A stretch of DNA of 64,000 bases, from positions 4,544,001 to 4,608,000 of the forward strand of contig OY843751.1 of the NCBI GenBank assembly GCA_963693055.1. Direction: 5' to 3'. How positions within the stretch are numbered: the stretch's first letter is position 1; every line of letters starts with the position of its first letter. This document shows positions 26,109 through 52,600 of this stretch, in pieces. Source of the stretch: a bacterium. Its GTDB lineage: Bacteria > Zhuqueibacterota > Zhuqueibacteria > Residuimicrobiales > Krinioviventaceae. Under the pieces are notes generated by a model. It saw only the letters and a program-made list of their open reading frames with translations, was not told where the DNA came from and made no database searches. The translations under genes were made by a program, and so were the position numbers.

Positions 26109-26109
26109 T

Positions 26110-26793
26110 TCAATCATGATCGACCTTGACCTCTTTTTCTAAATAACCGTCCAGTAAATGGATTATTCTGTCACCATATTCTGCTTTTTTCTCATCATGC
26201 GTTACCTGAATAATGGTTGTACCGTCTTTGTTCAACTGCTTCAACATTTCCATAATCTCAGTGCCCTGCTTTGAATTCAAATTGCCGGTAGGCTCATCCG
26301 CCAATATCAATTTGGGATTAATTATCATGGCCCGGGCCACCGCAACCAACTGCTGTTGGCCGCCGCTCAACTGGTGTGGGAACAGATCTTTTTTCGCAAC
26401 TATATTAAACCGGTCAAGCATATCTGCTACCAGACTTTTTCGCTCGCTGCCCTTTACTTTTTTGTACAACAGCGGAGTTTCCAGATTCTCATATACTGTC
26501 AGTTCATCAATAAGATGATAAGCCTGAAACACAAAACCAATATTTTGCTGATGCAATGCCGTACGTTTTTTTTCATTCAACGCGTGTACAGCTTGATCAT
26601 TGAAATAATATTCCCCTTCAGACATGTCATCCAGCATCCCGATTATATGCAGCAATGTGGATTTACCCGCACCGGAAGGTCCCATAATAGTCACAAACTC
26701 ACCCTCCTCAATCTCAAGGTCAATATCCCTCAGCACCCAGGTCTTGACAAACTTGTTGGAATAGTATTTTTCAATATCTTTTAATTTGATCAT
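26110..26793 (-). CDS. ABC transporter ATP-binding protein (MacB/LolD type)
   Basis: [25 protein letters not shown]. Confidence 0.95.
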
Positions 26794-26846
26794 TCCATTT
26801 CTCCATATTTTTCTTTTACTTTATTTGCATAATTCATTTTTCATCT

Positions 26847-26976
26847 GGTTCTCAGTATTCATTAAAATCATCAATTATTCAAATACAAAAATTCATTTAA
26901 ATTATAAAGTTTTTGTAAATCTAATCAGTTAATCTTACTGATCACTAATAACTGACAACTGAATACTATTATTCAT
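26847..26976. repeat. Degenerate inverted heptamer element preceded by an ATGAATAA gene-end remnant
   Basis: actgatc-actaata-actgaca-actgaat-act at 26937-26967, ttattcat at 26969-26976, weak partner arm ggttctcagtattca at 26847. Confidence 0.6.
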
Positions 26977-27004
26977 CTCCCGTCTGTCCTTTACCGTCTA
27001 CCCT

Positions 27005-27031
27005 CGGCTCCTGAGCTTGTAAAAAGGACAA
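27005..27031. repeat. REP-like junction element type B (copy 1)
   Basis: cggctcctgagcttgtaaaaaggacaa, similar to cggttcctgagcttgtcgaaggacaa at 37018-37043. Confidence 0.6.
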
Positions 27032-27032
27032 A

Positions 27033-29486
27033 TTACTCATACCTCAACGTAACCACTGGCCGAATCAAAAGCACCTTAATAACCTGAGCGCTGATGGCCG
27101 CAAATGCAATGATCAGGGCCCCGGCAACAGGCAATATGAAAAGGAAAATATTCAAAGGCGACCGGTAAGCAAAATTCTCAAGCCATATTTTAACAACAAA
27201 CCAGGAAACCGGCACTGCAAACAAACCCGCTATAAAAACCAGGAAAATAAACTTTTTGGCCAATAAATAATAGACCTGGCTCAATGATGCGCCCAGCACT
27301 TTACGGATGCCAATCTCTTTTGTCCGTTGCTGTACAATAAATGACGCCAGCCCACTTAATCCCGTACAGGCTACAAATAGTGCAATCAATGACACAAATC
27401 CCAGCAACCTCCCAGCCTGGATCTCTGAATGGTATTGCCGGTCATAGTCCTCATCCAGGAAAAATCCTTCCAAAGGAATGTCAGGGTACATTTCTTTCCA
27501 TCTTGAGCTCACAAAATCCAAAGTTGAATGCACATCCTGATCCAGCATATTCAAAGTCAGATAATTAAATCTGTACCCGGAATGCTCAATAAATAAGGGT
27601 TCCACCTCTTGCTGCATGCCTTCATAATAGAAATCCTTTACTACGCCAACAATCTCTTTTGCCCGCTGATACGGTGTATAACATTCCTGCCAAACAGTTC
27701 CCACAGCTTCCTGAGCAGATTCAAATCCCAATAACGCTACGGCAGATTCGTTAACGAGTATCCCGCCGTTTTTATCACCTCTATCCTCCATCATAGCACG
27801 TCCGGCAACTACCGGTATCTGATAAACATTTACAAAATCACAATCACCGTCAATAAAACTCAACTGCCGGGAAGGATCATGTCGTTTTCCAGGTACACGT
27901 AAATTATTTTTCAAAATAGACCTGCCAGGAATACCGGATGATACAGTCGAGCCAGTGATCATGGGATGTCTGGCCATCTCCGCTTTCAAGCTCAAATAAT
28001 CTTTGCTTAATTTCCTGTTATTTCTGAATGGGATGATATATTTTTGTTCCTTACTGAAACCAAGCTCCTGGGTTCTCATAAAATCCAATTGACTGTGCAT
28101 AGCAAGCGTACAAATCGCAAACAAAATTGAAATCACAAATTGGGCGATCACAAAAAACCGTACAAACCCGGAACCCTGCTTACCGGACACTTTAACCGAT
28201 TTAAGGACGGTAACTGGCTTTAATAAAGACATAATAAAAGCGGGATACAAACCGGCCCCCAAACCGACACTTGTTACAAGCACAAAAAGTGCAATAATCA
28301 CATTTCGCTCAAGTAATGGATAAAGGTCAAGGTCTGCGTTTGCCATTGAATTAAATGGCCCCACAAAAAGTCCTGCAAACAATAAAGCGATTGCAAATGA
28401 AATGACCGCAACAGCCATTGATTCACTAATAAACTGTCTGATCAATTGACTTCGTGTAACACCAAATGTTTTTTTTACCCCCACCTCGCGGGAACGTCGA
28501 ATCGAAAGCGTTGCGGTCAGGTTGATGTAATTCAAACATCCTATCAACAAGATCATTACTGCAATAGACGCGTAAATATAAATAAATAAATATTGGCCGG
28601 GCGGCTCAAGCTCTTCAGCTTCTCCCCCTATACTGAAACCGGCCAACCGGGATTTAAAATGGATATCTTTAACAGGTTGTAAAAAATAATTACGCTCTTG
28701 TTTCCAGGCATTCAGTTTTTCACCATAATATGTGTATGCAAGCCTTTTTATTTGATCTTCAAACATTAACGCATCAACGCCCTCTGATAATTTAACATAG
28801 GTATAAGCTGAACTGTTGTCCCACCCTAGAAAAGATGAATTGTTTGCAAACAATTCTGCCGAAGCAATAATGTCAAATTTAAAATGCGTGTTCGAACGTG
28901 AATTTTCAACAACACCCGTTATCTCGTAATCTAACAAAGGGGCCCCATTATCAGAACGTCCGCCAATTGTGGGATCAAGTAATTGAAACCGTTTCCCAAC
29001 AGGGTTCTCGTTGGGGGAATACATATCTGCAATCTCTCGTGTAATTACCGCGGTCCGAGGTCGAAGCAATGCGTCCTTAGCGCGTCCTTTCACAAACGGT
29101 ATGCTGAAAACATCAAACAAAGACGGGTCCGCGTAAAATAACCTCTCCGGAAAAGAGTGCTGCTGGCCGAATTTAACCATACCGTTTCGTATACGATAGA
29201 GCCTCGCTGTCTGGTCAACTTGAGGGTAGTCATCAAGTATCTTGCCAACCAACGGCGAGATCCTTGCTTTTCTAAAATGCCCGGCGGGAACAGTCCGATC
29301 TTCTGCGATGCGATATATATTATCTGCATTATCATGAAATGCATCATAAGCTAGCTCATTGTGAACATATAAAAAAATTACGATACAGCAAGCCATACCC
29401 AAGGCCAAACCAGATATTTTTATTAAAGAAATATACTTGTTCCTCAATATATTTCGTATTACTATTTTAATATCATGACCAATCAC
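27033..29486 (-). CDS. MacB/FtsX-type ABC permease, copy 10
   Basis: GCLNYINL..REVGVKK, RTKEIGIRKVLGAS, ends LRYE. Confidence 0.92.
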   Translation of the reverse strand: MIGHDIKIVIRNILRNKYISLIKISGLALGMACCIVIFLYVHNELAYDAFHDNADNIYRIAEDRTVPAGHFRKARISPLVGKILDDYPQVDQTARLYRIRNGMVKFGQQHSFPERLFYADPSLFDVFSIPFVKGRAKDALLRPRTAVITREIADMYSPNENPVGKRFQLLDPTIGGRSDNGAPLLDYEITGVVENSRSNTHFKFDIIASAELFANNSSFLGWDNSSAYTYVKLSEGVDALMFEDQIKRLAYTYYGEKLNAWKQERNYFLQPVKDIHFKSRLAGFSIGGEAEELEPPGQYLFIYIYASIAVMILLIGCLNYINLTATLSIRRSREVGVKKTFGVTRSQLIRQFISESMAVAVISFAIALLFAGLFVGPFNSMANADLDLYPLLERNVIIALFVLVTSVGLGAGLYPAFIMSLLKPVTVLKSVKVSGKQGSGFVRFFVIAQFVISILFAICTLAMHSQLDFMRTQELGFSKEQKYIIPFRNNRKLSKDYLSLKAEMARHPMITGSTVSSGIPGRSILKNNLRVPGKRHDPSRQLSFIDGDCDFVNVYQIPVVAGRAMMEDRGDKNGGILVNESAVALLGFESAQEAVGTVWQECYTPYQRAKEIVGVVKDFYYEGMQQEVEPLFIEHSGYRFNYLTLNMLDQDVHSTLDFVSSRWKEMYPDIPLEGFFLDEDYDRQYHSEIQAGRLLGFVSLIALFVACTGLSGLASFIVQQRTKEIGIRKVLGASLSQVYYLLAKKFIFLVFIAGLFAVPVSWFVVKIWLENFAYRSPLNIFLFILPVAGALIIAFAAISAQVIKVLLIRPVVTLRYE

Positions 29487-29638
29487 ATATCCTCCGGAAT
29501 AGCATTTAGGATTACAATTTAAATAACTTTTAAAAAAAGGATATTCATTAGAGATTACGACATTTTTTTAATTTTCATTAATGTTTTCGCTCTCATTTCA
29601 ATATCTTTTATAAAAATTTCAAGTTTAAACTATGAGTA

Positions 29639-32050
29639 TTATTCATACCTCAACGTATCCACCGGATTCGTTTGAGCCGCCCGAAAAGCCTGTGTGGTTA
29701 CCGTTAGCAGAGTAATGATCCAGACAACAATCAGCGGAAGCAAAAAAAGCAATACATTCAGATCCATCTTTTGCACAAAATCATTCAGCCAGAGTCGGAT
29801 CCCATAAATACCGGCAGGCAGCGCAACAATAAATGCAATACCCAGCAATAACAGAAAATCTTTTGCAAACATGAGTACAATACCCGGCACATTGGCACCC
29901 AATACCTTACGAATACCTACTTCTTTGGTCCGCTGCACCGCACTATATGCCGAAAGTCCCAGAATTCCCAAACAAGTTACCAGTACCGCAAGGACCGAAA
30001 ACAAACCAATCACCTGCCCAAACATTTGGTCTGCTTTGTATTGCTGATCATAATACTCGTCCAGAAAATAAAAATCAAAAGGATTCCCAGGGAAAAACTG
30101 GGCCCACAATTCCTGTACTTGTTTCATACTTTGCGGAATGGATTTACCATCCAGATTCAGCGCAAATACACCAAAATACGCAGTGGGATAATAACGAAAT
30201 ATTTGCGGTTCAAAATCGTCTTTGACTGTCTGCTGATGATAATTTTTCACCACACCAATTATAGGATAAATCTTTTCCCAATAACTGACTTCACTTCCAA
30301 CTGCTTCTTCTGCAGATTCGAATCCCATCCACTCTACGGCTTTTTCATTCAGCATCAATGCACCCTTGTCTGACGAAAACTCACGGGAAAAGGAACGTCC
30401 CGCCACTATTTCCAAATCAAACATTTCTATAAAATTAAAATCCACGCCTGTGATCATGTAATTTCGATTATGAGTCTGATCACTCCCCTTTTTCCGGATT
30501 CCGCCATTGTCCCAGAAAAACTGACGCCCCGGCACTTCGGTTACAAAACACGCATCAGTCACTCCCGATAAACGTTTGGCCTCGGTTTTAAAAGCTTCAA
30601 ACTTTTCTTCTTTGCCTTCTTCTGCCACAACCCTGGGCACCTTGAACACTAATGTTTGGTTCATTGCAAATCCCAAATCCTGCTTACGCATAAACCGGAT
30701 CTGATTATAAATTGCAAATGTCCCTGTAATTAACAGCAAGGCAATAATAAACTGAGTCAGCAGCAGTACTTTACGCAGCCCCATACCTCTGAATCCTGCA
30801 CTATTTTTTACTTTTAATACCTTTTGTGGCTTGAATGATGTGAGCAAAAAAACAGGATAACTTCCAGAGAATACGACTCCTGCAACAAATAAAATAGCTA
30901 TTCCAGCCCAAAACCACACACGGTCAAGCAATGAATACATATCCGGCATTCCGGTAAAATGATAAAATTGAGGTAAAACCAAAACAATCAAGACCAGAGC
31001 TATCAATACAGACAATGCATTTACAATCACTGTCTCTAGTAAGAATTGTGTACCTAAATGCCTGCGAGACGCACCAACCACCTTGCGTATACCCACCTCT
31101 TTTGCCCGGCTCATGGCCATTGCCGTCGAAAGATTGATATAATTGATCCACGCCATCAAGACAATAAATACAGCAATAACAGACAAGATCCGCACGGTAT
31201 CCTGACTGCCATTAACCTTAAATTCCTGCAAATAATGCGATTTTAAATGTATATCTGCTAATGGTTGTAATTGCAAATAAACATGTACACCATATTTTTC
31301 AATCCATTCTTTAAACTCGTTTTCAACACTGTTCAAAATTTGTGATTGCAGTTCCTGAACATCTGTCCCCTTGGTCAGGCGTAAATAAGTGAAAAATCCG
31401 GTATATCCCCATGCCTCTTGCAGTTCCTGCCCCTTTAGGGTTATCAGGTCCTTATATGCCAGCAATACATCACATTGTATATGCGAATTTTCAGGAAAAT
31501 CTTTATAAACCCCGGTTATTATATAACTATTGTCCTTGTCCACCTGAAACATTTTCCCAGTGGCCGGTTCATCTCCAAAATATTTTTTCGCAACAGAACT
31601 GGCAATCAATGCGGTTCCGGGTTTGACCAGTGCGCTATCAAAAGTTCCGTCAACCAGAGAAAAGGTAAACACATCCAAAAGCTCCGGTTCAGCAAAAAAC
31701 ATAAACTCTTCGGTAAACTTTTTTTGTTCAAAAGACATGACCGCTTTATGTCTGTACAAACGCCCAATCTTTTCAATCTGCGGAAACTTTTCCTTAACAA
31801 AGGGAGCTCCGGGCGGGCAACAAGAGGCAAATTGCACAATCGTCCCTTCGTCAGCGGTCCGCTCATACCGTAAACGATAGATCTGTTCATAATCATCGTG
31901 AAATTTATCAAAACTGGTTTCATAGTGAATATAATGAAAAATCAACAGGCACGACACAATGCCCACACTCAAGCCAATAATATTGAGCAAAGTAAAAAAT
32001 CTGGATTTTAATAAATTCCGAATCGCCACTCTAAAGTAATTTTGAAACAT
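29639..32050 (-). CDS. MacB/FtsX-type ABC permease, copy 9
   Basis: MFQNYFRVAIRNL, AWINYINL..RAKEVGIRK, NPVDTLRYE. Confidence 0.93.
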   Translation of the reverse strand: MFQNYFRVAIRNLLKSRFFTLLNIIGLSVGIVSCLLIFHYIHYETSFDKFHDDYEQIYRLRYERTADEGTIVQFASCCPPGAPFVKEKFPQIEKIGRLYRHKAVMSFEQKKFTEEFMFFAEPELLDVFTFSLVDGTFDSALVKPGTALIASSVAKKYFGDEPATGKMFQVDKDNSYIITGVYKDFPENSHIQCDVLLAYKDLITLKGQELQEAWGYTGFFTYLRLTKGTDVQELQSQILNSVENEFKEWIEKYGVHVYLQLQPLADIHLKSHYLQEFKVNGSQDTVRILSVIAVFIVLMAWINYINLSTAMAMSRAKEVGIRKVVGASRRHLGTQFLLETVIVNALSVLIALVLIVLVLPQFYHFTGMPDMYSLLDRVWFWAGIAILFVAGVVFSGSYPVFLLTSFKPQKVLKVKNSAGFRGMGLRKVLLLTQFIIALLLITGTFAIYNQIRFMRKQDLGFAMNQTLVFKVPRVVAEEGKEEKFEAFKTEAKRLSGVTDACFVTEVPGRQFFWDNGGIRKKGSDQTHNRNYMITGVDFNFIEMFDLEIVAGRSFSREFSSDKGALMLNEKAVEWMGFESAEEAVGSEVSYWEKIYPIIGVVKNYHQQTVKDDFEPQIFRYYPTAYFGVFALNLDGKSIPQSMKQVQELWAQFFPGNPFDFYFLDEYYDQQYKADQMFGQVIGLFSVLAVLVTCLGILGLSAYSAVQRTKEVGIRKVLGANVPGIVLMFAKDFLLLLGIAFIVALPAGIYGIRLWLNDFVQKMDLNVLLFLLPLIVVWIITLLTVTTQAFRAAQTNPVDTLRYE

Positions 32051-32106
32051 TTTTATCCCTTTTAAATTTATTCAATTGGATATGCCATTCGACTTAAATT
32101 TTTTCT

Positions 32107-32191
32107 AGTTTTCAGTTATCAGTCATATTAAATCATTTAATAAACTCAAAATAGATAGCCACTGAAAACTGCATACTGATAACTGATTACT
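32107..32191. repeat. Inverted heptamer-repeat hairpin (type A)
   Basis: agttttcagttatcagt ... actgaaaactgcatactgataactgattact, directly after the stop of 32193. Confidence 0.8.
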
Positions 32192-32192
32192 C

Positions 32193-34541
32193 TTATTCAA
32201 ACCTCAATGCGTCTACCGGATTGGCATTTGCCGCTTTAATGGATTGCCAACTCACAGTTAACACGGCAAAAGCAAAAGCCAGAAAACCGGCCAATACAAA
32301 TATCCACAAATCCAGATGGATCCGGTACACATAGCTTTGCAGCCATTTATTCATCAAAAACCACGAAACCGGCCACGCAATTACATTCGCAATCAACACC
32401 CATTTTCCAAAATCGATAAAAGTTTTAACAACAATACCCGACACCTCGGCTCCCAAAACTTTGCGGATCCCAATCTCTTTTGTGCGCTGTTCATTTAAAA
32501 ATGTTGACAAACCAAACAGTCCCAGACAAGAGACAAATACAGCAAGTATAGTGGACAAGAGTATAATTTTTTGAGAGAATTCTTGTGTCTGATTAAACTG
32601 ATGAGAAACATCACTCAAATATTGATAATTCAAGGGCCGTTCCGGGCTGAAGCGATTACAAGTTTCACGTATAAAACCAACAGTTTTGGTGATTTCTCTA
32701 ATATCTTTTAATTCAGGATTCATTTTTATAAATAGATATTTACTTGCTGCTGTATTTAGCCCAAATGCTAGGGGTTCGGGTTTTCCGGTTAATGTTTTAT
32801 TATGATGAAAATCTTTGACAATACCCACCAGTGTGATATATCGGTCATTCACAAAAAAGGGAACACCTGCCTTCATCTCCATACCTGCTGCCTTAATCGC
32901 CGCTTCATTTACAACCACAGCGCCTTTTGCATCATTGGGAAATTCCGAAGAGAAATATCGTCCATCTACCAATTCCAGATCAAATGCTTCCAAAAAATCA
33001 TATCCGGTTTCTGTATAGCACAATCTACGTGACTTTTGATCGTTCACACCCCATTGAAAAAAAGACCCGTTTAAAATCGAATTGGGAAGATTTGATGCAG
33101 TAGTTACCGTTTTGATTTGCGGATTCTGTAGTAATTCTTGTTTCAAGGGCTGATAATTATTTTGTATCTCTCCATCCATTTGAACATAAATTACATTGCT
33201 TTCATTGACACCCAAATTGAAATTTTTCACATATTTCACCTGGGAGCTAATCACAATCGCCATAATCACAAATCCAATCGAAAAAACAAATTGCACAACA
33301 ATCAAAGTTTTTCTCAATCGTCCTCGGGCGGAAGATAAAGACTGTTGCTTGAATATCTTGACAGGTTGAAATCGGGATAAATACAAAGCAGGGTATCCAC
33401 CGGCAAGCAATCCTGTAACAATCAATAACCCAACAAATCCAATCCAAAACACAGGATCAGCAATATCGAGACTGATTGCCTTACCGGTCATTTGGTTAAA
33501 TTTGTTTAATAAAAGACGTATAATTAAAAGAGCGAGTACTCCTGCCATTCCGGTCAAGAGTAATGATTCACCCATAAACTGTTTCGCAATTTCAAACCGG
33601 CTTGCACCGGTCACTTTGCGCACAGCTATCTCTCTGGCTCTAACGGTAGCACGTGCTGTAGCCAAATTCATAAAGTTAATACAGGCAATGGATAATATAA
33701 TCAGAGCTATTAATGCCAGAATTAAATTGCGCGTTTCTCCTCCGGTATCAAACATATAAGTATCGTTAAATGGCATTAATACAATTTCAAAGGATATCGT
33801 TTCCCCTTTTGAAAAAATTCGTTGACTGATTTTGTCAGATAAATTTTGATAATCAATACCGGAATCCAGCAAAACATAAGTCAAATATTGACATGGAAAA
33901 AATGGAGTTCCTTCTATATCCTGCCCCAGCTTTTTTAAAAATTCCAGGGGCAAAACATAGGTAAAGGTCCTGTAGGCATTTCCAGGAAGGTCTTCAACAA
34001 TACCGGTTACTTTGAAATCAAATTTATTATCATAACGAATCACTTGCCCCAGAGCATTCTCATTACCAAAATATTTTTTTGCTAATGATTCGGTTAATAC
34101 GATACTCTCAGGGTCCTGCAACGCGGTTTCAGGATTACCCGAGATGAATGAATATGAAAACACACTAAAAATGGACGGGTCCGCAGAAATCCCCCCCCTC
34201 TCTAATATCCGGGTTTCACCGGTCTTGAATACATGCGGGGCCATTAATCGCACACGAACCGACTCTATAATTTCAGGATATTCGGATTTAAAAATATTTG
34301 CAATAGCGGGCGATACCGTAGACTGCAAGTTGGTATTTTCACCCTGTGTGCTTTTTAAATACGCTTGACACATTCTGTCCCGGTTTTCATGGAAACTGTC
34401 AACGCTCAATTCATTCTGTATCCATAAAAGAATTAAAATGGAACAACTCAATCCTATAGCCAAACCTGCAACATTTATAAATGAATAGGTCTTGTATTTC
34501 ATCAAATTCCGAAAAACCGCTTTTAACAAATTCTTGAACAT
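32193..34541 (-). CDS. MacB/FtsX-type ABC permease, copy 8
   Basis: MFKNLLKAVFRNL, ACINFMNLATAR, NPVDALRFE. Confidence 0.93.
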   Translation of the reverse strand: MFKNLLKAVFRNLMKYKTYSFINVAGLAIGLSCSILILLWIQNELSVDSFHENRDRMCQAYLKSTQGENTNLQSTVSPAIANIFKSEYPEIIESVRVRLMAPHVFKTGETRILERGGISADPSIFSVFSYSFISGNPETALQDPESIVLTESLAKKYFGNENALGQVIRYDNKFDFKVTGIVEDLPGNAYRTFTYVLPLEFLKKLGQDIEGTPFFPCQYLTYVLLDSGIDYQNLSDKISQRIFSKGETISFEIVLMPFNDTYMFDTGGETRNLILALIALIILSIACINFMNLATARATVRAREIAVRKVTGASRFEIAKQFMGESLLLTGMAGVLALLIIRLLLNKFNQMTGKAISLDIADPVFWIGFVGLLIVTGLLAGGYPALYLSRFQPVKIFKQQSLSSARGRLRKTLIVVQFVFSIGFVIMAIVISSQVKYVKNFNLGVNESNVIYVQMDGEIQNNYQPLKQELLQNPQIKTVTTASNLPNSILNGSFFQWGVNDQKSRRLCYTETGYDFLEAFDLELVDGRYFSSEFPNDAKGAVVVNEAAIKAAGMEMKAGVPFFVNDRYITLVGIVKDFHHNKTLTGKPEPLAFGLNTAASKYLFIKMNPELKDIREITKTVGFIRETCNRFSPERPLNYQYLSDVSHQFNQTQEFSQKIILLSTILAVFVSCLGLFGLSTFLNEQRTKEIGIRKVLGAEVSGIVVKTFIDFGKWVLIANVIAWPVSWFLMNKWLQSYVYRIHLDLWIFVLAGFLAFAFAVLTVSWQSIKAANANPVDALRFE

Positions 34542-34604
34542 TATGAGAACCTCAACTATATTAATAACAAAATAACTATAAATATCTACCAGACAGAAAT
34601 CGTA

Positions 34605-36965: not shown

Positions 36966-37017
36966 TACTAAATGTTGTTAGCATCCATCAACTTTTTTTG
37001 GGTTACTCGTTCACCAT

Positions 37018-37043
37018 CGGTTCCTGAGCTTGTCGAAGGACAA
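37018..37043. repeat. REP-like junction element type B (copy 2)
   Basis: cggttcctgagcttgtcgaaggacaa right after the stop of 37046. Confidence 0.6.
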
Positions 37044-37045
37044 CC

Positions 37046-39436: not shown

Positions 39437-39483
39437 ACTTTCTCTTCATTCTGCAGACTTGAATTAATTATCATATTTTTTCA

Positions 39484-39511
39484 GCCTTTAGCTATAAGCT
39501 TATAGCTTATT
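39484..39511. repeat. GCT-type heptamer repeat / palindrome (type C)
   Basis: gccttta-gctataa-gcttata-gcttatt containing the perfect palindrome agctataagcttatagct. Confidence 0.6.
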
Positions 39512-41902: not shown

Positions 41903-41936
41903 TATTTATCCAATTTTCTATGGTCATTCAATTCCA

Positions 41937-42023
41937 AGTCATCAGTAATCAGTCGTCAGTTATCAGTTTAAAAACGACTTGATACATCTTTTACTGAGAA
42001 CTGAATACTGATTACTGACCACT
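41937..42023. repeat. Inverted heptamer-repeat hairpin (type A)
   Basis: agtcatcagtaatcagtcgtcagttatcagt / actgagaactgaatactgattactgaccact. Confidence 0.85.
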
Positions 42024-42025
42024 CT

Positions 42026-44404: not shown

Positions 44405-44429
44405 TTTCGATTCTTCACTCCTGTTTTTT

Positions 44430-44486
44430 GCTTATAGCTAATAGCTGAAAGCAGCTCATCTCACATTTCACGTCTCACGTCTGACG
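44430..44486. repeat. Two adjacent heptamer tracts (GCT-type and TCTCACG-type)
   Basis: gcttata-gctaata-gctgaaa-gc, then atctcac-atttcac-gtctcac-gtctgac-g abutting the stop of 44487. Confidence 0.65.
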
Positions 44487-46823
44487 TTACTCATACCTCA
44501 ACGTTTTTACAGGATCCATCGTTGCGACTTTGAGGGTTTGCCAGCTTGTGGTGAATACAGCAATTCCTAAAGCCATAAATCCTGCCAGTACGAATATCCA
44601 AAATTGCAAATCAATACGATACGCATAATTCTGCAGCCACTTGTTCATCATGTACCAGGTTAGCGGCCAGGCGATAATATTTGCCGCCAATACCCAGCGT
44701 GCAAAATCACTTGTCATTAAAAGGATGATTCCCGATACCGGCGCACCTAAAACTTTACGGATGCCAATTTCCTTGGTGCGTTGTTCAGCGGTAAACATGG
44801 ACAAGCCCAGCAATCCCAAGCCCGCAATAACCAGAGCAAGCGCTGTAAAACTGTTGATTACATTTTCAACTTTTTGATCAGCTTTATAATAATCATTAAT
44901 TTCTTCATCTATAAAACTGTACTCAAATGGATCATCAGGGACCAGAGTCTTCCAGAGGGACTCTATTTCATTGATTGTACTGTTCAAACCCGTGGGTTCT
45001 ACTCGTACTATTAAAAATCTTGTATTTTCTGCTTTATTATTGATCATTAACGGACCAATCTTTTCGTGTAGTGAACGAAAATTAAAATCCTTTACAACCC
45101 CAATAACCGTTCGATCACCAACCCGCTTACCCACAGCATCATCAAATCCCATCATTTTCATGGCAGCTTCATTGATCACCAGGCTTGAGGAAGAATCAGA
45201 CGGAAACTCGCGCGAGAAAAAACGTCCCTGTACCATCTGCATTTCAAGGGTACTCACCATATCATTATCCGCAGATAATATATGGATCAGGAAATTCTCT
45301 TCACCTCTTCGCTCTTCCCAGTCATCCATAACGATAGAATGCCCAAGATATGAAGGTGAATACGAAACCCCACTCGCGCTCGTTACAAAACGGCATCCCT
45401 CTATCTCTCTTTTCAATAATTCAATTTGGGTTGCCGGTTTATTTTGCAAATCTATCAATAAAACATTTCTCTGATTATACCCAAGTTTATGGTTACGCAT
45501 ATAATGCAGCTGCTGATTTATTACCATTGAACTGGCAATCAAAACAATGGTTATAACAAACTGAAATGAAACCAACACCCGGCGAAAAGCTTTACCTTTT
45601 AACCCAAATCCCGATTTAGCTTTCAATACTTTAACCGGATTAAATGATGACATAAAGAATGCAGGATAACTACCGGATATCACTCCGGTCAAAAACGCGA
45701 TCAATATAAATCCAATCAATATCCTGACATCCTGGATTATCCTGATTGATAATTGTTTACCGGAAATCATTTCAAAAACAGGCATGAACAGTTTCAATAA
45801 CACCAGGGAGATCAGAAAAGCAGTAAACGTGTAAATCAGTGTCTCGCCCATAAACTGCATTACCAAATCTTTTTTCCCGGCCCCTATCACTTTGCGCAGC
45901 CCCACCTCCATTGAACGGTTACCTGCTCTCGCGGTGCTCAGATTCATAAAATTGATACATGCCAGCAACAACACAATCACAGCCAATATTGAAAAAATAT
46001 AAATATATCGTATATCCCCATTACCGCCCATACCCCACATGGTCCCGGATCTCAAATGGATATCGGTCAATGGCTGCAAGGACAGATCAACAAGCGCATC
46101 TTTAAACCGGTCTTTAATAATGGGTTTAATTTTTTCATCAACAACGCTTTCGTCAATTCCATCTTTCAGCTTGACAAATGTAGAGAACGCGTAATAATTC
46201 CAATTCTCTTTGGGTTCTCCAAAGTTGTCAATGGATTCAAAAGGAATAATAAACTTGAAACTATGGATTGTATTAGAGGGCAGTGTTTTCAAAACACCGG
46301 TAACTTTATAATCATGTTTACTGTCAATACGCAGTGTCTTTCCCAAAGCGTCAACAGTGCCAAAATACTTTATTGCCATGGGCTCTGTCAATAGAATTGA
46401 CATGGGTTCAGTTAATGCATTCTCAGGTGTTCCGCTTGCAAATCCAAAACTGAAATAGTCGAAAAAATTCTGATCAGCACACAAGATCCGTGTTTCGTTG
46501 AATTGCTTGTCTTCATATTGTAACACATGCTTCCCAATGGATTTCATGCGCAGAGCACTCTGAATTTCAGGATAATCCGTGGCAAGTAATGGTCCAAGGT
46601 CTGGTGGATTGGTTGAAAACAACAAAACCTCTCCGTTTGAATAAGTTTCAATATCGATTACCCGGTAGATTTTCTCCGCATCGTCATGAAACCGGTCAAA
46701 GCTTAACTCATCCTGCACCCATAATAAAATAAATAACGCGCAAACCATACCCAGCGCCAATCCCAGAATGTTGATTGTAGAATGGATTTTATTTTTTAAT
46801 AATTGCCTGATTATAATCTTCAT
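44487..46823 (-). CDS. MacB/FtsX-type ABC permease, copy 3
   Basis: ACINFMNLSTAR, RTKEIGIRKVLGA, DPVKTLRYE. Confidence 0.92.
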   Translation of the reverse strand: MKIIIRQLLKNKIHSTINILGLALGMVCALFILLWVQDELSFDRFHDDAEKIYRVIDIETYSNGEVLLFSTNPPDLGPLLATDYPEIQSALRMKSIGKHVLQYEDKQFNETRILCADQNFFDYFSFGFASGTPENALTEPMSILLTEPMAIKYFGTVDALGKTLRIDSKHDYKVTGVLKTLPSNTIHSFKFIIPFESIDNFGEPKENWNYYAFSTFVKLKDGIDESVVDEKIKPIIKDRFKDALVDLSLQPLTDIHLRSGTMWGMGGNGDIRYIYIFSILAVIVLLLACINFMNLSTARAGNRSMEVGLRKVIGAGKKDLVMQFMGETLIYTFTAFLISLVLLKLFMPVFEMISGKQLSIRIIQDVRILIGFILIAFLTGVISGSYPAFFMSSFNPVKVLKAKSGFGLKGKAFRRVLVSFQFVITIVLIASSMVINQQLHYMRNHKLGYNQRNVLLIDLQNKPATQIELLKREIEGCRFVTSASGVSYSPSYLGHSIVMDDWEERRGEENFLIHILSADNDMVSTLEMQMVQGRFFSREFPSDSSSSLVINEAAMKMMGFDDAVGKRVGDRTVIGVVKDFNFRSLHEKIGPLMINNKAENTRFLIVRVEPTGLNSTINEIESLWKTLVPDDPFEYSFIDEEINDYYKADQKVENVINSFTALALVIAGLGLLGLSMFTAEQRTKEIGIRKVLGAPVSGIILLMTSDFARWVLAANIIAWPLTWYMMNKWLQNYAYRIDLQFWIFVLAGFMALGIAVFTTSWQTLKVATMDPVKTLRYE

Positions 46824-46842
46824 TTTATACCTTTTTTATTCT

Positions 46843-46919
46843 GGTTTTCAGTAATCAGTTGGCAGTTTACAGTAACAAGTTCCGTTTTACTGATAACTGA
46901 ATACTGATAACCGTCAACT
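46843..46919. repeat. Inverted heptamer-repeat hairpin (type A)
   Basis: ggttttcagtaatcagttggcagtttacagt-aacaagttccgtttt-actgataactgaatactgataaccgtcaact. Confidence 0.85.
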
Positions 46920-49289
46920 TTATTCATACCTCAACGCCTTTACCGGATCAGCCGTTGCCGCTTTAATCACCTGCAAACTCACGGTCAGCATGGCAATCAA
47001 AAGCGCTGCGGCACCTGCCAGCAAAAACGGCCATACGGTAATATTAATCCGGTAAGCAAAATTCTCTAACCATTTATGCATAGCATACCAGGCTATGGGC
47101 CAGGAAATCACACTGGAAATCAGAATACGATTTATAAATCCACCCAGCAATAATCTGAGAATACTGCTCAATGAAGCGCCCAGCACTTTACGTACACCAA
47201 TCTCTTTGGTGCGTTTTTCAGCCATAAACGAGGCAAATCCAAACAGTCCCAGGCACGAGATAAATATGGCAAATACGGTAAATCCGTTAAAAAGGAGTTT
47301 GATCCGCTGTTCCAATTGATACATGCGTTCATATCGTTCATCCAAAAAGCTGTATTCCAGGGGATATCCTGTCACGCGTCTGTCCCAAACACTTTTAATT
47401 GACCGGACACTCTCATCGATCCTGTCACCGGTTCGTACCAAAAGAGTGAATCCCATAGCGCTGATGGGCTCTTCTGTCATGGGTAAAAATACTTGTGGTT
47501 CCACGCTTTTATGCAGCGAGTGAAAATTGGCATCTTTGATCACACCCACAATAGTTCTCGGATTGTCATTTCCATAAACCGTGATCGTTTTCCCGATGGG
47601 GTCTGTTATACCCATCCGGCTCAAACCGGTTTCATTGATAATAACCGAGTTATTCACATCTCCGGGATGTTCCAATGAAAAACTCCTGCCAAACAAAAGC
47701 GCTACATTCAGGTCCGATAAATAGGATTCGTTGATCCAGTTGACCTCCCACAATACATCCTCATCCGGGTCGTTGCCCTGCCAGTTCACGGATTGGGTGG
47801 CACGGGCTATATGCTCGGGAGAACAGTTTTTCACAGCCACACCGGCAATTCCGGGTTGACGCAGCAGTTCATCCCGCATGGATTCATAATCCACATCAAC
47901 ACCCCGGTTTACTTCCACACACAATACATTATCTTTATTGAAACCCAAAGATTTGTTCTGCAGAAAATGTACCTGCTCATTTACAACCAGCATTCCGGTT
48001 ATTAATGCAATAGACAGGGAAAACTGAACAATAGTGAGTATATGACGGAACCCAAAAGTTTTTCCCGCTTGAATTTTTTGTTTAAATGCCCCTTGCGGCT
48101 TGATCGCTGAAAGATAAAACGCGGGATATGCTCCCGCAATCAATGCGGTAACAATCAAAATGCCCACCAACGAGAACAAGAACCTCGGATCGACCAGATT
48201 CAATGCACATACAGAACTTGATAATTTTGCATAAATGGGACATCCTATAACTGCAAGTCCCAGTGCAAGGATAAATGCTGCAAATGTAATCAGAAACGAT
48301 TCACCCATAAACTGCATTACAATATCTTTTCTGGCTGCTCCCATCACCTTTTTCAAACCGATCTCTTTGGCGCGATTGGTAAACCGGGCTGTGGATATGC
48401 TCATATAGTTGATACAGGCTATGAGCAAAATGAAAACAGCAATGACAGAAAATATATAAATATAATTTCGGTTCACGTTGGTACTGTCATCATTGAACAA
48501 GCCAGGCTCTAGATGTATAGATTGTAACGGCTGTAATTCAAAACTCTTGTTTGTATTCGGATTCGAATTATTCTTCTTATACAACGCGGTAATATTACCG
48601 GCTACCGCCTGGGGGTCGGATTGCTCATCTATCAATACATATGTATATGTGGGGAACCGGTTCCAGCGTGTCAGCAGATCGTTACGTTTTTCAGCCGCTT
48701 CAAAAGAAGTCAGAAAACGGAATCCCATATGCGAGTTTTCCGGCCAATCCTTTATAACCGCTGAAACGGTCATCAATTGATCATTCACCTCTAGCTGTCG
48801 GTTGAGCGGATATTGATCGCCAAAATATTTTTTTGCCGCGCTTTCCGTAAAAACAATCCTGCCCGGAGCAGATAATGCATTTCGGGCATCACCAGCTAAA
48901 AACTCGACTGAAAAAATATCAAAAAAGGACGGGTCAGCTACCGCCACCCCATTTTCAAACATGGCTTCATTATTATAACGAAACAATGTATTAACCCCGC
49001 TCCTGAACCGCGTTGCATTTACCACCTGCGGCAATTCTTGTTCAAGCTCAGGCGCCATTGGACCGGGAGTAGAAGCCCATTTTGCAGCATCATCATGAAA
49101 ATCAGCTATCACCCGGTAAACCCGTTCCGATTTTTCATTAAATGCGTCATACCCTAACTCATGCTGCACCCACTGTAAAATAAATATCACACAGGCCAAA
49201 CTCACCGCCAGCCCGGTTATATTTAAAATGGAGTATTGTTTATGTTTTAACAAATTTCGTATCGCAATTTTCAGATAATTAATTAACAT
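46920..49289 (-). CDS. MacB/FtsX-type ABC permease, copy 2
   Basis: MLINYLKIAIRNL, ACINYMSISTAR, DPVKALRYE. Confidence 0.93.
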   Translation of the reverse strand: MLINYLKIAIRNLLKHKQYSILNITGLAVSLACVIFILQWVQHELGYDAFNEKSERVYRVIADFHDDAAKWASTPGPMAPELEQELPQVVNATRFRSGVNTLFRYNNEAMFENGVAVADPSFFDIFSVEFLAGDARNALSAPGRIVFTESAAKKYFGDQYPLNRQLEVNDQLMTVSAVIKDWPENSHMGFRFLTSFEAAEKRNDLLTRWNRFPTYTYVLIDEQSDPQAVAGNITALYKKNNSNPNTNKSFELQPLQSIHLEPGLFNDDSTNVNRNYIYIFSVIAVFILLIACINYMSISTARFTNRAKEIGLKKVMGAARKDIVMQFMGESFLITFAAFILALGLAVIGCPIYAKLSSSVCALNLVDPRFLFSLVGILIVTALIAGAYPAFYLSAIKPQGAFKQKIQAGKTFGFRHILTIVQFSLSIALITGMLVVNEQVHFLQNKSLGFNKDNVLCVEVNRGVDVDYESMRDELLRQPGIAGVAVKNCSPEHIARATQSVNWQGNDPDEDVLWEVNWINESYLSDLNVALLFGRSFSLEHPGDVNNSVIINETGLSRMGITDPIGKTITVYGNDNPRTIVGVIKDANFHSLHKSVEPQVFLPMTEEPISAMGFTLLVRTGDRIDESVRSIKSVWDRRVTGYPLEYSFLDERYERMYQLEQRIKLLFNGFTVFAIFISCLGLFGFASFMAEKRTKEIGVRKVLGASLSSILRLLLGGFINRILISSVISWPIAWYAMHKWLENFAYRINITVWPFLLAGAAALLIAMLTVSLQVIKAATADPVKALRYE

Positions 49290-49351
49290 TGAATTTCCTG
49301 GAATATTGAAAACACTCTATTTTTATCTATACTAAATTATTATTTATATCT

Positions 49352-49429
49352 AGTCATCAGTAATCAGTCGTCAGTTTACAGCAACAAGTTCCGTTATTAC
49401 TGATAACTGAATACTGACAACCGAAAACT
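49352..49429. repeat. Inverted heptamer-repeat hairpin (type A), near-identical to 46843-46919
   Basis: agtcatcagtaatcagtcgtcagtttacagc-aacaagttccgttatt-actgataactgaatactgacaaccgaaaact. Confidence 0.85.
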
Positions 49430-51742
49430 TTATTCATACCTCAACGCCTCTACCGGATTCGCCGTAGCGGTTTTGATTACCTGCCAGCTTGTGGTCAGTA
49501 GAGCAATGGACAAAGCTGCAATACCCGAGATGGCAAATATCCACCAGCCCAACTCAGTACGATACGCAAAACTCTCAAGCCACTTGTTCATGATATACCA
49601 GCTCATCGGTACAGCGATAACAAATGCAATAACGGTCCATTTCAGCATATCCCGGTTCAGCAGGGCTGTTATCTCCCGCACTGATGCACCATTCACTTTG
49701 CGAATGCCTACCTCTTTGGCGCGACGTCGGGTCGTAAACTGCACCACACCAAAGGTACCCATAGCTGTAATCAGCAGGGCAATTACAGAAAAAATCCGGA
49801 TTGCGAATCCCAGTCTTTCTTCAGATTTATACATGGCATCATACCATTCGTCATAAAAAGAATATTCTAATACAAATTCAGGACAAACCTCATCCCAAAC
49901 ATTCTGGATATAATCCAAAGTGCCTGAAATATTTTCAGGAGCAATTCTCAGAGACAGCCAGGTATAATAGCTATCCTGATTATAAATAAAAAACGCGGGT
50001 TCAAGAGATTTGTACATACTCTCCGTATGAAAATCCTTAACGACTCCAATCACATCATTACCATTAATCTTTTTGTCCACAATTGAATTCCAGTTCACCA
50101 ATTTCCTGGCAGATTCATTAATGATAATGACATTGTTTTTCTCTGTTTCAATAAAATTTCTACCCTCAATGACCGAAATATCAAAAACATTGAAAAAATC
50201 CGTATCTACCATAAAAGTGGATACACTTTCTTTCCAGGTTCCCGCATCATACGCTTCATTCCATCCGTTTCCCATATATACTGCACCGGGACCGCTGTTT
50301 GAACAGGTCACATGATAAATTTGCGGAGATTCTGCAATTTTCTGTTTCAACAAGGGCAGTTTATCCTTGATCCGCCATGACACTTCAATCTTGACCAGGC
50401 AATCCTTGTCAAATCCCCAATCCATATTTTTAACATGCTTCATCTGAAGACTGATCACGATCAGCGCCGTGATCAGGATAATACTTACGGTATACTGCAC
50501 AGTCAGTAATCCCGCCTTGATCTTGAGCGCATTCCCATCAACATTGCGAAACATGGAGAGAACCGAGTAACGCGACGCCAGTATCGCGGGAAACAATCCT
50601 GCCAGTACCGAAATAAAAATCAACCCCGCAGGGATCAACAGGACCGTGGGCATCGAGTAAATATAATTCATATCAAAGGACTTGTTGACAATAGACTCAA
50701 ACACCGGTTTGGTCAAACCGGACAATAAAATAGCTGCCAAAAGTGATATGGCGCCAATCATTACAGATTCCAGAATAAATTGAAAAAATATAGTTTTACA
50801 ACCAGCGCCGACGGTCTTTTTAGTGCCAATCTCTTTGATCCGGGTCATATATTGTGCTGTAAACAAAACAATAAAATTTAAAATCGAGATTAAAAGAACC
50901 AACAGGGCAATTGCTCCCAAAATACGGATCAATCGCAAATTGGCGTGCATTAAATGGCTGCTGTCCCGGGCATCACTGAAATACGAATCTTTTAGAGACA
51001 TCAGATGGACCGGGTTATCCACCATATCATGATCAATTAAATGCGCGGACAATTTTCCATTAACTGCCGAAACATCACTGCCAGGCTCAAGCAGTACAAA
51101 ATAACGGTTAAAATATATTGTCTCACCATCATTTGTATAGCTGTTGACAACTGTTTTCAGGTCTCTGTGAATTATGGCTTTTGGCTGAAGACTGGAATTT
51201 CCAGGCAAGGATTTAATCACTGCACTCACGGTTAGATCATTTTTATGATATACCGTTAACGGTTCTCCAACAGGATTCCGTTCACCAAACAGTTTTTGTG
51301 CAATTTCTTCAGTCAAAATGATGGAATTTATATCGCTCAGAGCTGTCTCTTTGTTACCATATACAAAATCCACATCAAAAATATCAAAGAATGATGGTTC
51401 GGTATGCAGAATTTGATTGACCTTGAACGAATGCAGATCATGGGTCAATGCACCCCGGAAATTGATAAAATAGTTATATCGGCATACCTGTTCAATTTCA
51501 GGGAAATCATGGGTCAGATAATCAATTGCATCTTCGTTAATATCACTCTTGTCACCGTCTTTGATTATCCGATAAATACGGTCGACTTTGCTAAAAGCCC
51601 GGTCATAAGACAATTCATTAAATACAAAAGCGGATAACAGCAGGACCACTGTCAGGCTCAGTGTAAATCCTGATATGGTAATAACCGAGAATGTCTTGTT
51701 CCTGATCAAATTTCTATAAAACAACCGAAAAAAATGGATCAT
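49430..51742 (-). CDS. MacB/FtsX-type ABC permease, copy 1
   Basis: Start MIHFFRLFYRNL after a GGGAG RBS; RAKEVGIRKVNGAS, NPVEALRYE. Confidence 0.92.
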   Translation of the reverse strand: MIHFFRLFYRNLIRNKTFSVITISGFTLSLTVVLLLSAFVFNELSYDRAFSKVDRIYRIIKDGDKSDINEDAIDYLTHDFPEIEQVCRYNYFINFRGALTHDLHSFKVNQILHTEPSFFDIFDVDFVYGNKETALSDINSIILTEEIAQKLFGERNPVGEPLTVYHKNDLTVSAVIKSLPGNSSLQPKAIIHRDLKTVVNSYTNDGETIYFNRYFVLLEPGSDVSAVNGKLSAHLIDHDMVDNPVHLMSLKDSYFSDARDSSHLMHANLRLIRILGAIALLVLLISILNFIVLFTAQYMTRIKEIGTKKTVGAGCKTIFFQFILESVMIGAISLLAAILLSGLTKPVFESIVNKSFDMNYIYSMPTVLLIPAGLIFISVLAGLFPAILASRYSVLSMFRNVDGNALKIKAGLLTVQYTVSIILITALIVISLQMKHVKNMDWGFDKDCLVKIEVSWRIKDKLPLLKQKIAESPQIYHVTCSNSGPGAVYMGNGWNEAYDAGTWKESVSTFMVDTDFFNVFDISVIEGRNFIETEKNNVIIINESARKLVNWNSIVDKKINGNDVIGVVKDFHTESMYKSLEPAFFIYNQDSYYTWLSLRIAPENISGTLDYIQNVWDEVCPEFVLEYSFYDEWYDAMYKSEERLGFAIRIFSVIALLITAMGTFGVVQFTTRRRAKEVGIRKVNGASVREITALLNRDMLKWTVIAFVIAVPMSWYIMNKWLESFAYRTELGWWIFAISGIAALSIALLTTSWQVIKTATANPVEALRYE

Positions 51743-51815
51743 CATTACTCCCAAAATCAATCAATATACCAAATCAACGCACCTGTTCTTTAAATCATCA
51801 TTATTTACCAACCAT

Positions 51816-51905
51816 AGTTTTCAGTCGGTAGTTATCAGTTTTCAAAATACTATTTACATTCCACATAATATTTTACTGATTACAGACTACTGAAAACTGA
51901 CAACT
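51816..51905. repeat. Inverted heptamer-repeat hairpin (type A) after the first ATPase
   Basis: agttttcagtcggtagttatcagttttc ... actgattacagactactgaaaactgacaact. Confidence 0.8.
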
Positions 51906-51910
51906 CGTTT

Positions 51911-52600
51911 TTATACATGAAACTGGTTCTGCATATTTTCTGTCACTACCTTGCCGTCGAACAAGTGCACAATACGATTACTGAATTCCGCGTACGTTGG
52001 CGAGTGGGTTACCATTACAATAGTGGTGCCTTTATCATTCAGCTCGGTGAGAATACTCATCACTTCGTCACCATGACGTGAATCGAGATTACCGGTCGGT
52101 TCATCCGCGAGGATCACTTTGGGATCTGCTACAACCGCACGCGCAACCGCCACACGCTGTTGCTGACCACCGGACAACTGCTGCGGAAAGTGGTTTTTAC
52201 GATGCATGATCTGCATGTATTCCATGGCATGCTCTACACGCTCTTTGCGCTCTTTGGCCGGGACTTTCATATACAGCAGCGGCAGTTCAATGTTCTCAAA
52301 TACTGTCAACTCATCGATCAGATTAAACGATTGAAAGATGAATCCAATATTGCCTTTCCGCAGATTGGCGCGCTGACGTTCGTTGTATTTGGCAACATTC
52401 TCACCATTGAAAAAATAATCACCATCATCAATGGTATCAATCAGCCCAATCACATTCAACAGTGTCGATTTGCCACACCCTGACGGCCCCATTATGGCCA
52501 CAAACTCGCCTTCATTGGCCTGAAAATTAATATTATTCAGCGCCGTTGTCTCAATCTCATCTGTACGATAGACTTTGTTAAGATTTGTTGTTTTGATCAT
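51911..52600 (-). CDS. ABC transporter ATP-binding protein (MacB/LolD type)
   Basis: [33 protein letters not shown]. Confidence 0.95.
   Translation of the reverse strand: MIKTTNLNKVYRTDEIETTALNNINFQANEGEFVAIMGPSGCGKSTLLNVIGLIDTIDDGDYFFNGENVAKYNERQRANLRKGNIGFIFQSFNLIDELTVFENIELPLLYMKVPAKERKERVEHAMEYMQIMHRKNHFPQQLSGGQQQRVAVARAVVADPKVILADEPTGNLDSRHGDEVMSILTELNDKGTTIVMVTHSPTYAEFSNRIVHLFDGKVVTENMQNQFHV

What the first reader, a model, noticed from the sequence alone, without database searches (positions are those of the whole stretch)
26847..51905. Family of intergenic inverted-heptamer hairpins placed immediately after stop codons
Seen: elements at 51816-51905, 49352-49429, 46843-46919, 41937-42023, 32107-32191 and (degenerate) 26847-26967 share one polarity. 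In the mRNA, (AGTNNTC)~4 begins 0-5 nt after the stop, then a 15-40 nt loop (longer in the degenerate copy), then (GANNACT)2-4. The 5-bp cores are well conserved while the NN dinucleotides vary and often mismatch, predicting a periodic 5-bp helix with 2x2 internal loops. They lack the GC stem plus U-tract of terminators. Inference: these are RNA processing, stability or protein-loading sites that segment a ~31 kb transcript and tune permease stoichiometry, or attC-like ssDNA hairpins.
Basis: partly seen in the sequence, partly recalled or inferred. Interest (0 to 1): 0.72.

Follow-up and report, generated by a model that had tools for sequence, protein, structure and literature searches.

The report
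Emptied four-helix-bundle cassette hairpins
Six mirror-image runs of a 7-base repeat sit between the genes of a long transporter operon, and the same two runs bracket a small four-helix-bundle gene in that operon, so the hairpins are likely the gene-less remains of a hitch-hiking cassette that related bacteria gain, swap and lose at the same spot.

Summary
The six elements are real and far above chance, but their likely origin is not host regulation. In the same-genus genome G001, gene and arms were swapped together: the protein is 61% identical with saturated synonymous sites, its neighbours are 98-99% identical, and the heptamer differs. Across 16 readable relatives, this junction is filled (5), an empty hairpin (2), an arm remnant (3) or repeat-free (6). 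A relative with a similar permease array has no hairpins. Most arms in this genome are solo (35 of 49). The variable dinucleotides pair no better than chance. No RNA data exist, so RNase III cutting is inferred only from the Coxiella rRNA intervening sequence. Against my reading, only 1 of 123 arms sampled across bacteria flanks an intact gene, and no mobilising enzyme was found. The heptamer itself is published (TAACTGA repeats). I found no paper linking it to this gene. This scan has reported the same cassette on other DNA many times.

The parts
51816..51905 (-). Empty heptamer hairpin, ATPase-permease 1 junction; AGTNNTC arm begins 5 nt after the stop
   Evidence: (z -3.4); kept at the orthologous junction in G001
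49352..49429 (-). Empty hairpin, permease 1-2 junction; arm begins at the stop
   Evidence: (z -6.1); nearly identical in G001
46843..46919 (-). Empty hairpin, permease 2-3 junction; mosaic whose centre matches the permease 1-2 copy and whose outer ends match the G001 hairpin before permease 3
   Evidence: (z -5.2)
41937..42023 (-). Empty hairpin, permease 4-5 junction; G001 has an AGCT-type arm here instead
   Evidence: (z -7.7)
32107..32191 (-). Empty hairpin, permease 8-9 junction
   Evidence: (z -2.5)
26847..26967 (-). Degenerate hairpin, permease 10-ATPase 2 junction; starts 65 nt after the stop, behind a REP-like repeat and AGACGG-type units
   Evidence: (z -3.5); not recovered by the covariance model
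53130..53171 (-). 5' arm of the filled cassette, six AGTTGTC-type units, 55 nt after the HlyD-family gene stop
   Evidence: pairs with the 3' arm in the fold of the whole 629-nt spacer
52706..53071 (-). Four-helix-bundle gene (PF05635 23S_rRNA_IVP, TIGR02436; 121 aa; 32% G+C against 45-47% in both neighbours)
   Evidence: (PDB 2GSC, E 1e-22)
52666..52693 (-). 3' arm of the filled cassette, four GANNACT units, 12 nt after the four-helix-bundle stop
   Evidence: arm duplex -34.8 kcal/mol against -11.3 +/- 3.8; 0 of 1000 shuffles as low
44425..44489 (-). Solo arms of two other heptamer families (AGACGTG-type, then AGCT-type) directly after the permease 3 stop; G001 has AGTNNTC then AGACGG-type here
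39480..39508 (-). Solo AGCT-type arm after the permease 5 stop (limits read by eye)
23694..54477 (-). Host gene array: HlyD-family adaptor, two ABC ATPases and eleven MacB/FtsX-type permeases, all on the minus strand; one transcript is not shown

Best explanation
The hairpins are likely the gene-less remains of a small hitch-hiking cassette (about four heptamers, a ribosome-binding site, a four-helix-bundle gene, then the inverted heptamers), whose intact form lies in the same operon at 52666-53171. SHOWN: the two forms share arms and order; the gene and its arms were exchanged together between two species of one genus; one junction occurs filled, empty, with a remnant arm or repeat-free among relatives. 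INFERRED, step 1: cassettes land in the gap just behind a stop codon between co-directional genes, often on top of older arms, most likely by recombination through the short repeats, since no dedicated enzyme was found. Step 2: the gene is lost by deletion between direct copies of an arm, leaving an 80-90 nt hairpin, and later a solo arm. Step 3: hairpins spread further by duplication with the 3' ends of paralogous genes and by conversion between junctions. Step 4: in the transcript the arms would pair into an imperfect stem of about 28 bp that RNase III would likely cut, as in the rRNA intervening sequence, so any segmentation of the mRNA is a by-product. Step 5 (speculative): the pentameric, Avd-like protein would bind the repeats and help maintain or move them.
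For: Same arms around a PF05635 gene in the operon. G000 against G001: four-helix-bundle pS 0.92 (saturated), pN 0.235; the ten operon neighbours compared have pS 0.23-0.43; the armless four-helix-bundle paralogue is 100% identical. The arm family changed with the gene. Adaptor-ATPase junction: 22 loci fetched, 2 cut off by contig ends, 4 with an extra ~500-aa gene in between; of the other 16, 5 filled, 2 empty hairpins of other heptamers (z -4.9, -2.6), 3 remnants, 6 repeat-free. Period-7 signal in both flanks: 15 of 19 cassette-type loci, 0 of 10 in one armless clade, 50 of 4894 G000 genes (29 of 31 fetched loci, 2 dropped for short flanks). Neighbours co-directional: 16 of 18 upstream, 19 of 19 downstream. 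G010 holds filled, internally deleted and empty copies with the same arms, and the empty join matches a deletion between two direct copies of the 3' arm. The other hairpin cluster in G000 lies in a tandem rhamnosidase paralogue array. The Coxiella IVS has a 28-bp stem, heptamers and the same protein family, and is cut by RNase III (PMC4990558 passages).
Against: From the repeat side the gene is rare: 1 of 123 GTDB loci is the arm of an intact gene, 33 are hairpins, 88 solo, 1 has a gene about 620 nt away on the other side (only 76 had >=600 nt on the relevant side). In G000 only 2 of 49 arms flank the gene. G005 and G011 carry heptamer arrays but only the armless gene type was found (fragmented assemblies). 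Arm cores are kept at 96% between G000 and G001, more than expected of dead relics. One origin for the genes at the adaptor-ATPase junction is not rejected (AU p 0.135). One cross-pairing of G000 and G001 arms is as stable as the native pairs (-40.1; the other is -13.5). No transposase, integrase or DGR-type reverse transcriptase lies beside the cassette. The G010 series is paralogous, so its direction is not shown. No G.U strand bias was found.
Confidence: 0.64

Rival explanations
1. The repeats come first. They are independent REP/STRR-like heptamer arrays, made by slippage and kept as binding sites for a host protein, and four-helix-bundle genes merely land between existing arms.
For: Gene-less arms outnumber filled ones by roughly 25- to 100-fold. 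Cores are 96% and NN positions 84% identical at 27 retained arms. In G010 an arm pair also stands upstream of the intact gene, so the empty form could be the target. MacGregor proposed a repeat-binding regulator (PMC4679880, section 23).
Against: Unrelated heptamer families bracket the same gene family in matched inverted pairs. Arms change when the gene changes. The armless clade of the gene has no repeats (0 of 10).
Confidence: 0.17
2. One reading: host-evolved RNA processing or stability sites that segment the ~31 kb transcript and tune permease amounts.
For: Stable folds right after stops. Three junctions are kept in G001. RNase III is present. In Xanthomonas, assembled transcripts started or stopped more often at the G4-capable heptamer repeats than at control repeats (PMC4692102, section 15).
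Against: G004 has an array of six or more permeases with no hairpin, and G025 has three without. The arm family at one stop differs between congeners. 35 of 49 arms are solo. 8 of 35 GTDB hairpins lie between divergent frames by a crude call. The opposite strand folds with similar z-scores. No covariation.
Confidence: 0.13
3. attC-like single-stranded DNA hairpins used for site-specific shuffling of permease genes.
For: The permease array differs between congeners: three extra permeases and a different tenth one in G001. One hairpin is a mosaic.
Against: The best integron-integrase score is 80.9 bits against a cut-off of 265. The exchange that removed two permeases maps to the conserved last ~30 nt of the genes or the adjoining arm, which ordinary homologous recombination explains. 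No joined or excised form was seen in two DNA runs, though contigs cannot show absence.
Confidence: 0.04

Closest known systems
ORF-bearing 23S rRNA intervening sequence of Coxiella burnetii (S23p; PMC4990558, passages read)
   Same: PF05635/S23p gene in the loop of a stem of about 28 bp; tandem heptamers in the arm, varying in number between strains.
   Different: Here the element lies between protein genes, not in rRNA. It has gene-less and solo derivatives, and the heptamer differs (GACAGAT there). Cutting is untested here.
TAACTGA heptamer repeats of Beggiatoaceae, Cyanobacteria and Bacteroidetes (MacGregor 2015, PMC4679880; abstract, passages and sections 12, 16, 23 read)
   Same: Same heptamer (TAACTGA is a rotation of GATAACT); intergenic; forward orientation before start codons; mixed with other heptamers.
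   Different: The paper treats them as direct repeats, mostly 1 nt from the start codon, and names no mechanism. It has no occurrence of 'four helix', 'intervening' or 'S23' in the main text. Here the units are degenerate, paired as inverted arms and mostly behind stops.
GGGANTN heptamer repeats of Xanthomonas and Nostoc (PMC4692102; passages and sections 15, 16 read)
   Same: Preference for four units; one orientation right behind stops on the coding strand, the other before starts; many inverted pairs; fast variation between close species.
   Different: Explained there as G-quadruplexes. AGTNNTC has no G-tract, so the shared layout needs another cause.
REPIN/RAYT systems (PMC3337134; abstract and section 5 read)
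   Same: Many gene-less inverted doublets and singlets per genome, with one gene flanked by the same repeat.
   Different: The unit is a tandem non-palindromic heptamer. The flanked gene is not an HUH/IS200-type transposase, and it is replaced between congeners.
DGR accessory protein Avd (PF22296, NF033474; bioRxiv 10.1101/2023.10.23.563531 and PMC10053308, passages read)
   Same: Related fold family, described as a positively charged pentamer that contacts RNA.
   Different: Scores are below both cut-offs (37.7 of 40; 36.5 of 80) and there is no adjacent reverse transcriptase.

Membership tests
ORF-bearing rRNA intervening sequence (IVS) | PF05635/S23p gene enclosed by the stem | tested here: met
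   Met by the filled copy; the six reported copies have no gene
ORF-bearing rRNA intervening sequence (IVS) | Terminal inverted repeats forming a stem of about 28 bp with heptamers | tested here: met
   compare
ORF-bearing rRNA intervening sequence (IVS) | Located inside a 23S rRNA gene | tested here: not met
   All copies lie between protein genes; no period-7 array was found in the window's 23S gene at 11627-14622
ORF-bearing rRNA intervening sequence (IVS) | Excised by RNase III | not testable with these tools
   RNase III gene present; no RNA holder listed
TAACTGA repeats (MacGregor 2015) | Intergenic tandem TAACTGA-type heptamer | tested here: met
   GATAACT/AGTTATC is the commonest unit, 32 of 161; 0 of 49 arms inside ORFs
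TAACTGA repeats (MacGregor 2015) | Forward orientation, within a few nt of a start codon | tested here: inconclusive
   Orientation met in 15 of 17 start-nearest arms, but only one lies closer than 34 nt to the start
Xanthomonas/Nostoc G-rich heptamer repeats | About four units, coding strand behind the stop, inverted pairs | tested here: met
   4 units in 32 of 49; 20 of 28 stop-side arms within 19 nt
Xanthomonas/Nostoc G-rich heptamer repeats | G-tracts able to form a quadruplex | tested here: not met
   The unit is AGTNNTC
REPIN/RAYT | Inverted doublet with spacer, many gene-less copies | tested here: met
REPIN/RAYT | Flanked gene is an HUH tyrosine transposase | tested here: not met
   The flanked gene is PF05635/TIGR02436 with no transposase match
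Integron attC sites | Integron integrase in the genome | tested here: not met
   TIGR02249 best 80.9 bits, cut-off 265
Integron attC sites | R''/R' core boxes and extrahelical bases | not tested
   Motifs are recalled only; no scan was run
DGR (Avd) | Avd score over cut-off and an adjacent reverse transcriptase | tested here: not met
   the only RT found is about 150 kb away
Intrinsic terminator | Short G+C stem followed by a U-tract | tested here: not met
   No listed site overlaps the six elements

The most novel reading that the evidence does not exclude
The Avd-like four-helix-bundle pentamer is the trans-acting factor of an unrecognised class of mobile element without a transposase. It binds about four heptamer units in RNA or single-stranded DNA and drives their insertion behind stop codons, so the long-unexplained heptamer repeats of many bacterial phyla are its non-autonomous offspring, and rRNA intervening sequences are only the copies that landed in rRNA.
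Probability: 0.3. Interest if true: 0.88.

Novelty: new variant of a known kind. Interest (0 to 1): 0.62.

Why it matters
Abundant 7-base intergenic repeats have been reported in several phyla without a mechanism (PMC4679880, PMC4692102), and the S23p/four-helix-bundle family has a solved structure but no function (PMC4990558; PDB 2GSC). This operon holds the filled and the emptied forms side by side, and a congener shows the gene and arms exchanged together. That ties the two puzzles to one element and gives matched protein-repeat pairs (G000 and G001) for direct binding and cleavage tests. It also warns against reading such hairpins as host regulatory sites by default.

Tried and rejected
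RNA evidence: no RNA holder listed; this says nothing about expression. Two runs of assembled contigs showed no credible joint across a hairpin or the cassette; the listed joints have 20-38 nt sides. Rfam: only rRNA and tRNA in the window. G.U strand-asymmetry test on 35 GTDB hairpins: 2 against 3, 7 against 5, 4 against 7; no signal. NN co-pairing: 46 of 84 against 41.0 expected, p 0.13. Covariation: term +0.65, 1 of 17 pairs. Flank-duplex test against other loci was weak; the G000 and G001 cassettes ranked 7 and 18 of 56, because relatives share compatible heptamers and 130-nt flanks add noise. I used periodicity and arm-only duplexes instead. AU test of one origin at the junction: not rejected. 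Another passenger gene family between arms: 87 short ORFs near 80 GTDB arms gave only scattered host families. Single-sequence structure prediction: pLDDT 45.9, not used. An intervening sequence in the window's 23S gene: none seen. Promoter scans gave no site of note. Gene calls in G000 come from my own ORF caller with a hexamer filter, so nearest-gene labels are approximate.
Full report
OBSERVATION. The six elements are present at the given coordinates. They lie in minus-strand junctions of an array made of an HlyD-family adaptor, two ABC ATPases and eleven MacB/FtsX-type permeases. In five, the AGTNNTC arm begins 0-5 nt after the stop; in the sixth it begins 65 nt after. Folding z-scores are -2.5 to -7.7 on the mRNA strand and -2.9 to -6.5 on the other. 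The alignment consensus of 11 copies from G000 and G001 is a periodic 5-bp helix with 2x2 loops, with no covariation. In single folds of 14 hairpins, 9 of 42 unit pairs have 2x2 loops, 20 have 1x1 and 13 are fully paired. The NN positions pair no better than chance (46 of 84 against 41.0, p 0.13). Intergenic DNA holds 51 arms of two or more perfect units, against 0-1 in ten Markov controls.

The 121-aa ORF at 52706-53071 is a four-helix-bundle protein: TIGR02436 139 bits, PF05635 140 bits, closest solved structure 2GSC. It sits between the adaptor and the first ATPase, with six AGTTGTC-type units before it and four GANNACT units after it. In the fold of the whole 629-nt spacer these arms pair and enclose the gene. 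The arm duplex is -34.8 kcal/mol against -11.3 +/- 3.8 in 1000 shuffles. The gene has 32% G+C and its neighbours 45-47%. I noted this reading before consulting earlier scan notes, which report the same cassette in many other genomes; those notes are unchecked AI text and are not counted as support.

GENOME-WIDE PATTERN. With a relaxed rule there are 49 arms in G000, none inside an ORF. By nearest gene end, 28 read AGTNNTC behind a stop, 15 read GANNACT before a start, and 6 are exceptions (Fisher p 2.6e-7). Outside the window and the CRISPR-like region the counts are 21, 9 and 2 (p 2e-6). Put simply, AGTNNTC points away from the neighbouring gene into the spacer, like a terminal inverted repeat. 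14 of the 28 stop-side arms start within 5 nt of the stop. 32 of 49 arms have four units, and only 14 of 49 have a partner within 150 nt. The other hairpin cluster lies in a tandem array of three alpha-L-rhamnosidase paralogues, and a fourth paralogue elsewhere also carries an arm behind its stop, so the copies are not all independent. A covariance model finds 6 sites in G000, 6 in G001, 4 in G014 and none in G004 (150 candidates scored per genome, training copies included).

TURNOVER BETWEEN RELATIVES. In G001 (same genus) the adaptor and ATPase are 98.1% and 98.7% identical, but the four-helix-bundle protein between them is 61% identical and its arms are AGACGG-type and AGCT-type. Its synonymous sites are saturated (pS 0.92, pN 0.235), while ten neighbours have pS 0.23-0.43. 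Neutral decay cannot give that pattern, so the gene was replaced by a diverged, constrained relative. The second PF05635 gene of G000 has no arms and is 100% identical in G001; it belongs to a well-supported clade in which 0 of 10 loci show period-7 flanks, against 15 of 19 for the rest and 50 of 4894 G000 genes. Arm families also differ at the stops of permeases 3, 4 and 9. At the adaptor-ATPase junction, 22 loci were fetched from 61 genomes. Two end before the junction and four have an extra ~500-aa gene there. Of the other 16, five are filled (G000, G001, G014, G017, G051), two are empty hairpins of other heptamers (G057 z -4.9, G055 z -2.6), three carry short remnants without a significant fold (G034, G045, G060) and six have no repeat. 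The five genes fall in two parts of the tree, but one origin is not rejected (AU p 0.135). In G010, filled, internally deleted and empty copies share the same arms, and the empty join equals a deletion between two direct copies of the 3' arm. These are paralogous sites, so the direction is inferred. The G000 permease 2-3 hairpin is a mosaic of the permease 1-2 centre and the outer ends seen before permease 3 in G001, where two more permeases lie in between.

ACROSS BACTERIA. A scan for four perfect units in GTDB genomes stopped at 123 loci from 14 named phyla. 33 are hairpins in the order AGTNNTC then GANNACT, none in the reverse order, 88 are solo, and 53 follow a stop that closes a long frame. 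Only 1 is the arm of an intact four-helix-bundle gene; 76 loci had 600 nt or more on that side. No other passenger family recurred. Among 41 related genomes the exact AGTNNTC triple occurs in 4, and two other families occur in 8 and 13. Of 13 genomes with two or more matches to any family, 11 hold a PF05635 gene outside the armless clade and two (G005, G011) do not; kin are not independent and these assemblies are fragmented. At 27 retained arms (34 aligned, 7 dropped as replaced; 15 of 49 not aligned or not fetched) cores are 96% and NN 84% identical between G000 and G001. The arms were picked as intact in G000, which inflates the core figure, but they do not look like fast-decaying junk. This is the main reason the 'repeats first' rival keeps weight.

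MECHANISM. Shown: shared arms, joint replacement of gene and arms, and all states at one junction. Inferred: landing behind stop codons by recombination through the repeats, loss of the gene between direct arm copies, spread with paralogue ends and by conversion. RNase III is encoded and cuts the comparable 28-bp, heptamer-bearing stem of the Coxiella IVS (PMC4990558), so cleavage of these stems is likely but untested; no RNA run is listed. No integron integrase passes the cut-off. The single reverse transcriptase is about 150 kb away and not beside a four-helix-bundle gene. A role for the protein as a repeat-binding pentamer rests on its kinship with Avd and is speculation.

COMPARISON WITH PRINT. 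The heptamer is the TAACTGA repeat of MacGregor 2015, and the layout matches the Xanthomonas GGGANTN repeats. The main text of the former has no mention of four-helix or intervening-sequence proteins; I did not search the latter for those terms. The many-empty, one-filled pattern resembles REPIN/RAYT, but the gene is no HUH transposase. Cyanobacterial STRR heptamers are recalled, apart from a passing mention in PMC4692102. Searches (0 papers with all four terms; 7 papers, 5 listed, passages of 2 read) found no paper linking PF05635 genes to heptamer arms in mRNA operons. The library covers only openly licensed PMC papers and bioRxiv, and I read no supplements, which may bear on this.

VERDICT. 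A real family, better explained as emptied copies of an IVS-like four-helix-bundle cassette than as host-built processing sites. It works like an intervening sequence moved into mRNA operons with REPIN-like offspring, and it is a member of neither family by their defining features. New variant of a known kind; interest 0.62.

Noticed in passing
G000:C1:2797371-2798440 (L090) and 2565740 (L089): A unit made of an AGTNNTC arm, an AGCT-type arm and a CRISPR-like repeat occurs four times in tandem within a CRISPR-like array; a related unit lies near a Cas6 gene and a DDE transposase.
   Followed up: no
L002 (G000:C1:5878393-5878761); L022-L030: An armless clade of PF05635 genes (support 100/100), 100% identical between G000 and G001, often followed by the same downstream gene: it looks like a domesticated copy with a host function.
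   Followed up: partly
window 36965-37046 and 26990-27033: A REP-like palindrome (CTTCGACAAGCTCAGG type) directly behind two permease stops; many intergenic regions of this genome are mosaics of several such repeat families nested with heptamer arms.
   Followed up: no
window 23694-51760 against L032, L033: The permease array differs between congeners (three extra genes and a different tenth gene in G001). The last 15-18 nt of most permease genes are nearly identical at the DNA level and contain GAGG, possibly a coupling ribosome-binding site and a recombination tract.
   Followed up: partly
G000:C1:3760458-5294067: 38 of the 49 arms lie in one quarter of the chromosome; unexplained.
   Followed up: no
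L081:105-2421 (G000:C1 about 4.446 Mb): The genome's only reverse transcriptase found (386 aa), preceded by a 326-aa ORF; the layout suggests a retron-type defence system, not tested.
   Followed up: no
window 58682-61972 and L093:4273-7563: Two 1096-aa proteins with the same PKD, Ig and C-terminal sorting domains at distant loci: a likely recent duplicate.
   Followed up: no
window 11435-16544: A complete rRNA operon with two spacer tRNAs; the 23S gene is about 70 nt longer than the Rfam model, with no heptamer insert seen.
   Followed up: partly
window 23059-23646 (+): A 195-aa ORF with no Pfam or NCBIfam match facing the end of the permease array.
   Followed up: no
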